Positions 38,201 to 41,200 of a stretch of DNA of 64,000 nt are shown here, in pieces. Location of the stretch: NCBI RefSeq assembly GCF_054482595.1, contig NZ_CM137008.1. One strand, written 5' to 3'. The stretch's first letter is position 1. Every line of letters starts with the position of its first letter. A program made the position numbers.

Positions 38201-41200
38201 TATCCACTTTTTTGCACGCCCGTATTCAACGGCTTCTTTAAGGAGTTCATTTTCCATCGTTTTTTTGCCGAGCAGGCGCTGGAGTTCTTTAATCTGCTTC
38301 ATGGCGGCAGCAAGTTCAGAGGCAGGAACGACCTGTTCTCCTGCGGCCACAGCAGTAAGACTTCCCTCCTGGTATTGCTTGCGCCAGAGAAATAACTGGC
38401 TGGCTGCCACACCGTGTTGCCGGGCAACAAGGGAGACTGTCATTCCCGGTTCAAAACTCTGCTGAACAATAGCGATCTTTTCCTGTGTAGTACGCCGTCT
38501 GCGTTTCTCCGGTCCTAAGACATCAATCATCTGCTCTCCAATGACTAGTCTAAAAACTAGTATTAAGACTATCACTTAAATAAGTGATATTGGTTGTCTG
38601 GAGATTCAGGGGGCCAGTCTACTCAGAGGTAATCATACCGTGAATAGTGCTGTTTTTGATTGTCAGACTATTGGCGTTGGTATTGGTAGAAATACCGTCG
38701 TCCAGATAGTAGGTAGAAATCACCCCGTTAACAGTAGCGTTATTAATGACCGGGTAGATATCGCCGTTGTAATAGCTATCAGCGGCATAGTTGTTCCAGC
38801 CTACATAACCATCATAGTAAACATCATCAGCATAGGTGGCGTCGTTGTAGTGATGAAAAGTATTGTAAGTTTGACCAGAAATATCGTTGGTCGCTGCATT
38901 AGCCTGAGAGGTGATAGCCAGAGTGCAAGCCAATGCTAATTGTGATACTACAAGTTTCTTTTTCCAGGAGTGCATTTGTCATCCCTCCTCAGGGACGTAA
39001 TAAGTTGATCCATCAATTATCAATGCATAGAAAACATCTTATGTTTCGCGTTTACGATTATGCGGCGTTATAGAGGAATGGTTCAATTATTCTTTCCCCT
39101 AAGTCCGATTGCGGACATATATAAAAATATCTATACGCACAAAGAATAAGTTGACAAAAACACTGCATTTCAACACGTTAATGAAATCATTAATTTTGAA
39201 TTATAGATCCTGAAAATACCAAAACAACAAATCAGACAAATAATTTATCAATAAACAATGAACTTTAAGTAATTCAATTTTTGACAGTTCAACCAAATTA
39301 GCAAAAATAATAACCAGCACCTATAAATAAAAATTAAAAATATTTTCAGTGAATATGAAATTATTGCTATTTCTATTACAAAGATGTCCTGGCCTCTCTT
39401 CCATTCTCTTCTTGTCAACATCGCGACAACTTTCGTAAAACATCCCCACCCTGCTTCAGGTATACTATGCCCCTCGATTCCACAAACATCAGGCAGACCA
39501 TGACAGATTTAATCCAACGCCCTCGTCGCCTGCGCAAATCTCCTGCGCTGCGCGCTATGTTTGAAGAGACAACACTTAGCCTTAACGACCTGGTGTTGCC
39601 GATCTTTGTTGAAGAAGAAATTGACGACTACAAAGCCGTTGAAGCCATGCCAGGCGTGATGCGCATTCCAGAGAAACATCTGGCACGCGAAATTGAACGC
39701 ATCGCCAACGCCGGTATTCGTTCCGTGATGACTTTCGGCATCTCTCACCATACCGATGAAACCGGCAGCGACGCCTGGCGGGAAGATGGACTGGTGGCGC
39801 GTATGTCGCGCATCTGCAAGCAGACTGTGCCAGAAATGATCGTCATGTCAGACACTTGTTTCTGTGAATACACATCTCACGGTCACTGCGGTGTGCTGTG
39901 CGAGCATGGCGTCGACAACGATGCGACTCTGGAAAATTTAGGCAAGCAAGCCGTGGTTGCAGCTGCTGCAGGCGCAGACTTCATTGCCCCTTCCGCCGCG
40001 ATGGATGGCCAGGTACAGGCGATTCGCCAGGCGCTGGACGCTGCTGGCTTTAAAGATACGGCGATTATGTCGTATTCGACCAAGTTCGCCTCTTCCTTTT
40101 ATGGCCCGTTCCGTGAAGCTGCCGGAAGCGCATTAAAAGGCGACCGCAAAAGCTATCAGATGAACCCAATGAACCGTCGTGAGGCGATTCGTGAGTCACT
40201 GCTGGATGAAGCCCAGGGCGCAGACTGCCTGATGGTTAAACCTGCTGGAGCGTACCTCGACATCGTGCGTGAGCTGCGTGAACGTACTGAATTGCCGATT
40301 GGCGCGTATCAGGTGAGCGGTGAGTACGCGATGATTAAGTTCGCCGCGCTGGCGGGTGCTATAGATGAAGAGAAAGTGGTGCTCGAAAGCTTAGGTTCGA
40401 TTAAGCGTGCGGGTGCGGATCTGATTTTCAGCTACTTTGCGCTGGATTTGGCTGAGAAGAAGATACTGCGTTAGTTCTGTTTTCTCTCAGAAAGGGGGAA
40501 GTAACCTGTTGAAAGTACGGTGAACTCCCCCTCACCCTAACCCTCTCCCCAAAGGGGCGAGGGGACCGTCCACTCTCGTATTACCCCGCCCGATAAAACG
40601 GTTTATCCCCAAGAATCGTCGCCCGATACATAATCCGCCGCTGTGGCAGGTAATCCGCATTGGCATAGTGCTGAGTCACACGGTTATCCCAAATCGCAAT
40701 ATCATTCGGTTGCCAGCGCCAGCGCACCTGAAACTCCGGTTTAGTGATATGGGCGAATAAAAAGCCCAACAAGGCTTCGCTCTCTTTCTCGCTGACATCA
40801 ACAATTCGCGTAGTAAAGCCTTCATTCACAAACAGCGCCTGTTTACCGCTCACCGGATGCGTTCGCACCACCGGATGTAGCAACGGCGGATTTTTCGCAA
40901 CCGCCTCGTGCCAGCGTTGATGCTCCTCCTCGGTTTTGCGGTATTTGTATTCCGGGAACGATTTACGGAAATCATGCTCCGCACGCAACCCGCTCATCAG
41001 CTGGCGGAAGGGAACAGAGAGCGCCTCATAGGCCGCAATACCGCTGGTCCAGAGCGTATCGCCGCCGGTCGAAGGTAACTCTTTCGCTGCCAGAATCGCC
41101 CCTGCGGGTGGCGTTTCAATAAATGTCACATCGGTATGCCAGTTGTCGTTATCTGGCGGATTATCGTTATGGGTATCCAGCACGATGATCTCGTCAACCC

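What the first reader, a model, noticed from the sequence alone, without database searches (positions are those of the whole stretch)
40475..40580. GC-rich palindromic element between the convergent hemB and tauD genes
The 106-bp gap contains CCCTCACCCTAACCCTCTCCCCAAAGGGGCGAGGGGACC, with complementary C-rich and G-rich arms. It is probably a bidirectional terminator and may belong to a dispersed intergenic repeat family rather than being a simple hairpin.
Basis: seen in the sequence. Interest (0 to 1): 0.2.

Follow-up and report, generated by a model that had tools for sequence, protein, structure and literature searches.

The report
Known BoxC repeat between hemB and tauD
The GC-rich "palindrome" between hemB and tauD is one copy of BoxC, a dispersed E. 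coli intergenic repeat that two papers have already catalogued at this exact site, and the evidence says it is not a classical terminator.

Summary
The hemB/tauD gap is exactly 106 bp, and the quoted string sits at 40529-40567.

It is more than a hairpin. It has three blocks: on the minus strand, CCCTCGCCC-CTTTG-GGGAGAGGG-TTA-GGGTGAGGG. This matches the published BoxC / PIT / TMECO consensus exactly.

The K-12 ortholog is already catalogued twice at this locus:
- TMECO no. 5 (Holder et al. 2015).
- HPG1 G-quadruplex candidate no. 13 (Kaplan et al. 2016).

The 51-bp core occurs at a median of 19 places per E. coli genome. The left half of the gap is single copy.

The locus is polymorphic. About two thirds of 5,426 genomes carry this allele. 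The rest carry an unrelated 39-bp gap with its own small hairpin.

The "dispersed repeat" guess is right. The "bidirectional terminator" guess is not supported, for four reasons:
- There is no U-tract on either strand.
- The literature reports no terminator activity for these elements.
- K-12 data show a Rho-dependent termination zone about 165 nt beyond the element on the hemB strand.
- No Term-seq 3' end is listed inside the gap.

Two other K-12 BoxC copies, both with perfect stems, do carry mapped RNA 3' ends 4 nt after the hairpin. A role as a protective 3' stem-loop for Rho-terminated transcripts is therefore plausible but unproven here.

Already known; low interest.

The parts
39500..40474 (+). 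hemB (porphobilinogen synthase) coding sequence, stop codon TAG at 40472-40474
   Evidence: ORF list. The 975-nt hemB annotation of the orthologous C600 and MG1655 loci. Stop codon read.
40581..41432 (-). tauD (taurine dioxygenase) coding sequence, last gene of tauABCD, convergent with hemB
   Evidence: ORF 40581-41432, 283 aa; annotation of orthologous loci.
40524..40577 (-). Extended BoxC repeat unit of about 54 bp: the triplex-motif core plus partly conserved flanks (5' ...GGACGGTC, 3' GGA..)
   Evidence: Alignment of 11 copies from 10 loci. Conservation of at least 80% runs from GTC before the core to GG.A after it, with weaker conservation about 10 nt further 5'. The literature gives a BoxC length of 56 bp.
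40528..40563 (-). 36-nt BoxC/PIT/TMECO core, type A with one mismatch: CCCTCGCCCCTTTGGGGAGAGGGTTAGGGTGAGGGG
   Evidence: Exact match to the published consensus CCCTCNCCCN3-6GGGNGAGGGN3GGGNGAGGG. The sequence is identical to Table 1 entries 7, 11 and 15 of Holder et al. The K-12 ortholog is entry 5.
40555..40563 (-). C-rich block CCCTCGCCC (reads GGGCGAGGG on the + strand)
   Evidence: Parsed. It pairs with either G-block: 8 of 9 Watson-Crick with the proximal block (one G/A mismatch), and 8 of 9 plus one G-T wobble with the distal block.
40541..40549 (-). Proximal G-rich block GGGAGAGGG. It forms the hairpin with the C-block across the 5-nt loop 40550-40554.
   Evidence: The proximal hairpin folds at about -17 kcal/mol as RNA on either strand.
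40529..40537 (-). Distal G-rich block GGGTGAGGG, the candidate third strand of an intrastrand purine-motif triplex. The second loop, TTA, is at 40538-40540.
   Evidence: All 9 positions satisfy the G*G-C / A*A-T / T*A-T triplet rules when antiparallel to the proximal G-block. In-vitro triplex formation by this motif is reported by Holder et al..
40527..40550 (-). Four-G-tract potential G-quadruplex GGGGAGAGGGTTAGGGTGAGGGGG; the only such motif in the 64-kb window
   Evidence: Regex scan of both strands of the window. The K-12 ortholog is listed as HPG1 member no. 13, midpoint 388688, by Kaplan et al. 2016.
40493..40532 (.). Single-copy imperfect hairpin AGGGGGAAGTAACC / GGTGAACTCCCCCT. It overlaps the end of BoxC and is followed on the minus strand by TTTCT, so it may be a weak tauD-side terminator. 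It is not part of the repeat.
   Evidence: Inverted repeat I1 and folds. This half of the gap is single copy and present in 3592 of 5426 genomes.
40564..40740 (+). hemB 3' UTR running into antisense tauD, with more C than G up to about 40640. It corresponds to the zone where K-12 shows Rho-dependent termination; the peak at K-12 388499 maps to about window 40728. This is inferred by coordinate transfer, not measured in this strain.
   Evidence: GC skew of -0.15 to -0.42 for 60-nt windows starting between 40480 and 40600. Adams et al. 2021, Supplementary file 2, row 388499 (-): Rho score 3.8, p = 2e-9. Coordinates.

Best explanation
The element is the hemB-tauD copy of BoxC, a dispersed intergenic repeat of about 55 bp. 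The same family has also been named PIT element, TMECO triplex motif and HPG1 G-quadruplex motif. It consists of one C-rich and two G-rich 9-nt blocks. As single-stranded nucleic acid these can form either of two alternative hairpins, an intrastrand purine-motif triplex, or a G-quadruplex. At this locus it is a polymorphic passenger in the shared 3' region of two convergent genes. It is not an intrinsic (hairpin plus U-tract) terminator. RNA polymerase coming from hemB transcribes through it and is stopped by Rho further downstream, inside antisense tauD. The most likely consequence at the RNA level is that the hairpin, which has no U-tract, can act as a 3'-to-5' exonuclease barrier that sets or stabilises the mature 3' end of such Rho-terminated transcripts. 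Shown here: the identity, the copy number, the allele polymorphism, and the absence of a U-tract. Taken from the literature: the in-vitro triplex, the lack of terminator activity, and the Rho zone in K-12. Inferred: the 3'-end-protecting role at this locus, and the transfer of K-12 data to this strain.
For: Identity:
- There is an exact match to the TMECO consensus, with 0 matches expected by chance.
- The K-12 ortholog matches at MG1655 388664-388699, inside the tauD-hemB gap 388647-388752.
- That copy is listed as TMECO no. 5 (Table 1) and as lying 17 nt from tauD and 51 nt from hemB (Table S2) in PMC4666352.
- It is also listed as HPG1 no. 13 in PMC5100583.

Family:
- The 51-bp core has a median of 19 places per genome in 5,425 genomes, while the left half of the gap is single copy.
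- Eleven aligned copies share the core and short flanks.

Structure:
- The triplet and G4 rules are met.
- The hairpin folds at about -17 kcal/mol on both strands.

Not an intrinsic terminator:
- There is no T-run after the stem on either strand, and the terminator scan does not flag it.
- The literature reports no promoter or terminator activity.
- A Rho termination region lies at 388499 (-), with no Term-seq 3' end listed within the gap.
- Rho regions also lie 80-350 nt downstream of six other K-12 BoxC loci.

3'-end role:
- Term-seq 3' ends lie exactly 4 nt after the BoxC hairpin at lldD (3781065 +) and ppiC (3959467 -).
- This matches the general rule of Dar and Sorek 2018 that Rho-dependent transcripts end just after stable stem-loops lacking U-tracts.
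Against: - No 3' end at the hairpin is listed for hemB or tauD in the one dataset I could read. So a protective role at this copy is untested.
- This copy has a mismatched stem, whereas the two copies with mapped 3' ends have perfect stems.
- tauABCD is not expected to be expressed in the media used, so the tauD side is uninformative.
- The terminator-assay result is known to me only second-hand, through Holder et al.
- All transcript data are from K-12, whose copy differs from the window at one position of the 36-nt core (in loop 1).
- Roughly a third of E. coli genomes lack the element at this site with no known consequence. This argues that any function is dispensable.
Confidence: 0.85

Rival explanations
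1. Bidirectional intrinsic terminator: the GC-rich hairpin stops RNA polymerase coming from both hemB and tauD.
For: The element lies between convergent genes, with a stable GC-rich stem on both strands. Seven of 18 K-12 BoxC loci are convergent and only 2 are divergent. Kaplan et al. speculated about a terminator role. REP repeats between convergent genes are discussed as bidirectional terminators. RNA 3' ends map 4 nt after BoxC hairpins at lldD and ppiC.
Against: No U-tract follows the hairpin on either strand. The literature reports no terminator activity for PIT elements. A bicyclomycin-sensitive termination zone lies about 165 nt downstream on the hemB strand, and no Term-seq end is listed in the gap. 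Copies occur inside operons (pstA-pstB, ytfQ-ytfR), where a strong terminator would be harmful. lldD transcription continues to a strong Rho zone in trmL (Rho score 8.4) despite the BoxC pair.
Confidence: 0.06
2. The element works at the DNA level. Transient triplex or G-quadruplex formation on the G-rich strand during replication or transcription stalls polymerases and promotes local rearrangement. Under this view the element matters as a source of intergenic variability rather than through RNA.
For: Holder et al. report a stable triplex in vitro (Tm 70-82 C) and more sequence variability around these loci than around control sites. This locus is itself dimorphic, with the whole gap replaced in about 34% of genomes, and a rare 51-bp-longer variant exists. 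Table S3 lists the element as missing here in 22 of 56 strains. Kaplan et al. report an ion-dependent G4/hairpin switch in vitro.
Against: In-vivo DMS footprinting gave no evidence of a stable triplex, and the duplex form dominates when the complementary strand is present. Presence/absence polymorphism is expected for any dispensable repeat and does not show that the repeat causes instability. The two alleles share no junction homology that would point to a triplex-induced deletion.
Confidence: 0.12
3. The C-rich face of BoxC in the hemB transcript is itself the Rho-loading (rut) site for hemB termination.
For: The stretch 40526-40552 has 17 C and 0 G in 27 nt on the hemB strand. C exceeds G for about 160 nt from there. 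A Rho zone lies downstream in K-12.
Against: The second C-block is sequestered in the hairpin. Across K-12, Rho zones follow BoxC copies transcribed in either orientation: three C-rich, three G-rich and one paired locus. There is therefore no orientation dependence. Dar and Sorek place rut sites downstream of the stem-loop, not in it.
Confidence: 0.08

Closest known systems
BoxC / PIT element / TMECO (triplex motif of E. coli), specifically TMECO no. 5 of MG1655
   Same: It has the same consensus, the same type (A, TTA second loop, one mismatched position), the same locus and the same flanking genes. The window's 36-mer is identical to three other catalogued K-12 copies (nos. 7, 11 and 15).
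   Different: Only allelic detail differs. Loop 1 is CTTTG here and CCTTG in K-12, and the hemB stop codon is TAG rather than TAA.
HPG1 conserved G-quadruplex/hairpin motif (Kaplan et al. 2016), member no. 13
   Same: It is the same element seen through a G-quadruplex search: the same four G-tracts and the same locus.
   Different: It is a different structural interpretation (G4/hairpin switch rather than triplex). Neither has been shown in vivo.
REP/BIME elements of E. coli
   Same: Both are short, GC-rich, hairpin-forming dispersed repeats in transcribed intergenic regions. Both are enriched at gene 3' ends and depleted from divergent promoters, and both may stabilise 3' ends.
   Different: The sequences are unrelated, and BoxC has three blocks rather than a simple palindrome. 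BoxC has about 20-30 copies against several hundred for REP. No transposase is known to be associated with BoxC.
Protective 3' stem-loops of Rho-dependent transcripts (Dar and Sorek 2018)
   Same: There is a stable stem-loop with no U-tract, a Rho-dependent termination zone downstream, and a C>G region right after the stem. Two sister BoxC copies have mapped 3' ends 4 nt after the stem.
   Different: No 3' end has been mapped at this copy. Those stem-loops are a functional class, not a sequence family.
Intrinsic (Rho-independent) terminators
   Same: Both have a GC-rich hairpin at a gene's 3' end.
   Different: The U-tract is lacking on both strands, and reporter tests are reported as negative.

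Membership tests
BoxC / PIT / TMECO | Matches the consensus CCCTCNCCC-N3-6-GGGNGAGGG-N3-GGGNGAGGG | tested here: met
   One exact match at 40529-40563 (-), with 0 matches in 100 shuffles. Consensus taken from PMC4666352.
BoxC / PIT / TMECO | Several dispersed copies in the same species | tested here: met
   Median of 19 places per genome (range 2-35) for the 51-bp core. Independent copies were retrieved and aligned.
BoxC / PIT / TMECO | Intergenic location | tested here: met
   It lies wholly within the 106-bp hemB/tauD gap.
BoxC / PIT / TMECO | Orthologous to a catalogued family member | tested here: met
   MG1655 388664-388699 is TMECO no. 5, flanked by tauD and hemB. It is also HPG1 no. 13.
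BoxC / PIT / TMECO | Conserved flanks extend the unit to about 56 bp (the BoxC definition) | tested here: met
   GTC 5' of the core and GG.A 3' of it are at least 80% conserved, with weaker conservation about 10 nt further 5'. The unit is about 54 bp. The published length of 56 bp is quoted.
BoxC / PIT / TMECO | The G-rich strand folds into an intrastrand purine-motif triplex | not testable with these tools
   The sequence rules are satisfied at all 9 triplet positions. Holder et al. report CD/NMR evidence for TMECO oligonucleotides. Their control oligo is this exact 36-mer with four G-to-C changes.
Intrinsic terminator | GC-rich stem-loop | tested here: met
   The proximal hairpin folds at about -17 kcal/mol on both strands.
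Intrinsic terminator | U-rich tract immediately 3' of the stem | tested here: not met
   The + strand continues GACCGTCCACTC. The - strand continues TTAGGGTGAGGG after the proximal stem, or GGAGTTCACCGT after the core. The consensus terminator scan does not report it.
Intrinsic terminator | RNA 3' ends mapped at the site, insensitive to Rho inhibition | tested here: not met
   No 3' end within MG1655 388647-388752 appears in the curated Term-seq lists of PMC7815308. A bicyclomycin-sensitive zone lies at 388499 (-). Caveats: this is K-12 only, the lists are thresholded, and tauD is probably not expressed in those media.
Intrinsic terminator | Terminator activity in a reporter assay | not testable with these tools
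   Holder et al. state that PIT elements showed no promoter or terminator activity in an earlier study. The primary paper is not in the library.
Rfam RNA families | Reaches the gathering score of any curated family | tested here: not met
   Only three chance-level hits (E = 1.6-9.5), all far below their gathering scores.
Canonical G-quadruplex motif (HPG1) | Four G-tracts of at least 3 G separated by loops of 1-7 nt | tested here: met
   GGGGAGAGGGTTAGGGTGAGGGGG at 40527-40550 (-) is the only such motif in the window.

The most novel reading that the evidence does not exclude
BoxC copies in 3' UTRs are working parts of Rho-dependent 3'-end formation. The hairpin sets the mature 3' end 4 nt after the stem, as seen at lldD and ppiC. 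The presence/absence polymorphism at hemB-tauD would then switch the two convergent genes between a BoxC-plus-Rho mode and the compact hairpin of the short allele. This would change the stability of hemB and tauD mRNA and the antisense read-through among E. coli lineages.
Probability: 0.2. Interest if true: 0.35.

Novelty: already known. Interest (0 to 1): 0.1.

Why it matters
It matters little as a discovery. The element, its family and this exact copy are already in the literature under four names.

The useful outcomes are practical:
- The gap should be annotated as a BoxC repeat, not as a terminator.
- Combining published 3'-end and Rho maps with the BoxC catalogue suggests a testable role for a repeat family whose function is still open. 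BoxC copies are transcribed through, are often followed by Rho-dependent termination, and in two cases mark RNA 3' ends 4 nt after the stem.

Tried and rejected
- **Rfam scan of 39000-42000 at a permissive threshold:** only chance-level hits.
- **Consensus promoter/terminator scan:** nothing at the element.
- **Further copies in the 64-kb window:** none found.
It gave no E. coli copies and no usable distribution.
- **Covariation analysis of the hairpin:** not attempted, because family copies are almost identical in the stems, so it would be uninformative.
- **Clean insertion with a target-site duplication, tested by aligning the filled and empty alleles:** the whole gap is replaced with no shared junction, so there is no evidence of MITE-like insertion.
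- **BoxC's C-rich face as the rut site:** rejected as a general idea, because Rho zones follow copies transcribed in either orientation.
- **Supplementary data of Dar and Sorek 2018, wanted for hemB 3' ends:** not held.
- **First literature search on 'box C':** too noisy to use.

Full report
**1. What is there**

The window is E. coli. hemB runs on the plus strand and ends at 40474. tauD runs on the minus strand and ends at 40581. The gap between them is 106 bp. The gene names come from the RefSeq annotation of the orthologous loci in C600 and MG1655.

Its arms CCCTCTCCCC and GGGGCGAGGG pair with one mismatch across a 3-nt loop. A further C-block, CCCCTCACCC (40528-40537), is 90% complementary to the same G-block. 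The element therefore has three blocks, not two.

Read on the minus strand it is CCCTCGCCC-CTTTG-GGGAGAGGG-TTA-GGGTGAGGG-G. No dinucleotide-preserving shuffle of the window produces this motif. The fold energies alone are only mildly unusual, with z between -0.6 and -2.0.

**2. It is a dispersed repeat**

A blastn search with the 51-bp core (40522-40572) against 5,426 complete E. coli genomes finds a median of 19 places per genome, range 2-35. The left half of the gap (40475-40524) is single copy and present in only 3,592 genomes.

Other copies lie between purK and ybcF, ytfQ and ytfR, and tusA and zntA. In MG1655 they lie between adk/hemH, fabI/ycjD, aaeR/tldD, frlR/yhfS, pstA/pstB and fepB/entC. 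Aligning 11 copies shows an almost invariant 36-nt core plus short conserved flanks. The unit is about 54 bp, which is 40524-40577 in the window.

**3. It is already catalogued**

Holder et al. 2015 (PMC4666352) describe the family as BoxC. It was later called PIT elements, and they rename it TMECO. Their consensus is CCCTCNCCCN3-6GGGNGAGGGN3GGGNGAGGG. The window matches this exactly.

- Their Table 1 lists no. 5 at MG1655 388664-388699. I confirmed that this lies in the tauD-hemB gap, 388647-388752.
- Their Table S2 names tauD (17 nt away) and hemB (51 nt away) as its neighbours.
- The window's 36-mer is identical to their entries 7, 11 and 15 (type A, one mismatch).
- Kaplan et al. 2016 (PMC5100583) independently list the same copy as HPG1 G-quadruplex candidate no. 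13, midpoint 388688.
- A systematic survey also recognises BoxC in E. coli. Its own search found a 50-bp unit with 22 copies, and the published figures it cites are 56 bp and 32 copies.

**4. Structures the sequence allows**

- The C-block pairs with the proximal G-block in 8 of 9 positions, with a G/A mismatch.
- It pairs with the distal G-block in 8 of 9 positions plus a G-T wobble.
- The distal G-block meets the purine-motif triplet rules at all nine positions.
- The G-rich strand is the only four-G-tract quadruplex motif in the 64-kb window.

Holder et al. report a stable triplex for the isolated strand in vitro. They found no in-vivo footprint of it, and the ordinary duplex forms when the complement is present.

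**5. Is it a terminator?**

The evidence says it is not an intrinsic one.

- No T-run follows the stem on either strand, and the terminator scan does not flag it.
- Holder et al. state that earlier functional tests of PIT elements found no promoter or terminator activity.
- In MG1655, Adams et al. 2021 (PMC7815308, Supplementary file 2) list a Rho termination region at 388499 on the minus (hemB) strand, antisense to tauD. Its Rho score is 3.8 and p = 2e-9. That is 165 nt beyond the element and corresponds to about window 40728.
- Their curated Term-seq lists contain no 3' end inside the gap.
- Family copies also occur inside operons and in divergent promoter regions. Of 18 K-12 loci, 7 are convergent, 9 tandem and 2 divergent.

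There are caveats. The transcript data are from K-12 only. The lists are thresholded. tauABCD is probably silent in the media used.

**6. A more likely RNA-level role**

Targeted look-ups in the same tables show Rho zones 80-350 nt downstream of six further BoxC loci: adk, tldD, frlR, ilvC, lldD and the yihR-yihS copy. These occur in both orientations of the element, which argues against the C-rich face being a specific Rho-loading site.

Two BoxC copies with perfect stems carry Term-seq 3' ends exactly 4 nt after the hairpin: lldD at 3781065 (+) and ppiC at 3959467 (-). I checked both against the genome sequence.

This fits the rule of Dar and Sorek 2018 (PMC6061677). Rho-dependent transcripts end just after stable stem-loops without U-tracts, these stem-loops protect against 3'-5' exonucleases, and rut sites lie just downstream. 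The hemB strand has more C than G for about 160 nt from the element onward. A protective role at this copy is therefore plausible, but it is inferred and not shown.

**7. The locus is polymorphic**

A 346-bp query across the gap is fully covered in 3,596 of 5,426 genomes. In the rest, the flanking gene ends match but the locus is 67 bp shorter.

The short allele has an unrelated 39-bp gap with its own 10-bp hairpin, with fold z-scores of -3.9 and -2.3. The two alleles share no junction sequence, so this is a replacement and not a clean insertion. Holder's Table S3 agrees, with the element missing here in 22 of 56 strains. One strain (PA11) has a 51-bp-longer variant.

**8. Verdict**

The repeat-family guess is right, and the terminator guess is not supported. 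The element is already known, down to this copy, and its interest is low.

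Noticed in passing
L127:421-459 (hairpin L127:429-452); orthologous to window 40475-40580: About a third of E. 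coli genomes carry an unrelated 39-bp hemB-tauD gap, TGATCATTATGCCGGGTTATCCAACCCGGCATTTCCCCC. It has a tight 10-bp hairpin (z = -3.9 and -2.3) and no BoxC. It looks more like a compact two-way stem-loop than the BoxC allele does.
   Followed up: partly
L128:421-577 (strain PA11): This is a rare longer allele. A 51-bp insertion sits after BoxC and repeats the element's flank motif (GACTGTCCGTGCTCG ... GACCGTCCACTCTCG). That suggests recombination with, or duplication of, a BoxC flank.
   Followed up: no
L136 (MG1655 3781065, +) and L135 (MG1655 3959467, -): Published Term-seq 3' ends for lldD and for the ppiC strand fall exactly 4 nt after the perfect 9-bp BoxC hairpin, with no U-tract. As far as I could see, this link between BoxC and RNA 3' ends is not made in the BoxC papers I read.
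   Followed up: partly
MG1655 BoxC loci nos. 5, 6, 14, 15, 17/18, 20, 21: Seven of 18 K-12 BoxC loci have a bicyclomycin-sensitive (Rho) termination region 80-350 nt downstream, in either orientation of the element. The crude random expectation is about 1.2, but gene 3' ends are a biased sample, so the significance is unclear.
   Followed up: partly
L015-L121 (Mitsuaria chitosanitabida NBRC 102408): One Burkholderiales genome supplied nearly all 120 loci of the truncated scan. It has well over 100 copies of the same three-block motif, with its own loop (GCTTGC) and a fixed 3' flank (TCTTCGGGCTC). Many copies occur as inverted pairs 80-230 bp apart.
   Followed up: no
L007-L014 (Methylomirabilota MAG JACPAT01), L022-L024 (Ca. 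Contendobacter): The same motif occurs about 13 times in the fetched contigs of a Methylomirabilota metagenome-assembled genome. That lies outside the Proteobacteria, in which Holder et al. counted this motif. The blocks are identical across phyla, while the loops and flanks are lineage-specific.
   Followed up: no
window 40493-40532: A single-copy imperfect hairpin sits just upstream of BoxC, and its 3' arm overlaps the end of the repeat. On the minus strand it is followed by TTTCT. It could be a weak tauD-side terminator, and it competes with BoxC's distal block for pairing.
   Followed up: partly
L004:1530-1600 (ytfR-ytfQ gap): A REP-like palindrome (GCCGGATGCGGCGTAAACACCTTATCCGGC) lies next to the BoxC copy inside the ytfQRT operon. 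Two different repeat families therefore share one intergenic region.
   Followed up: no
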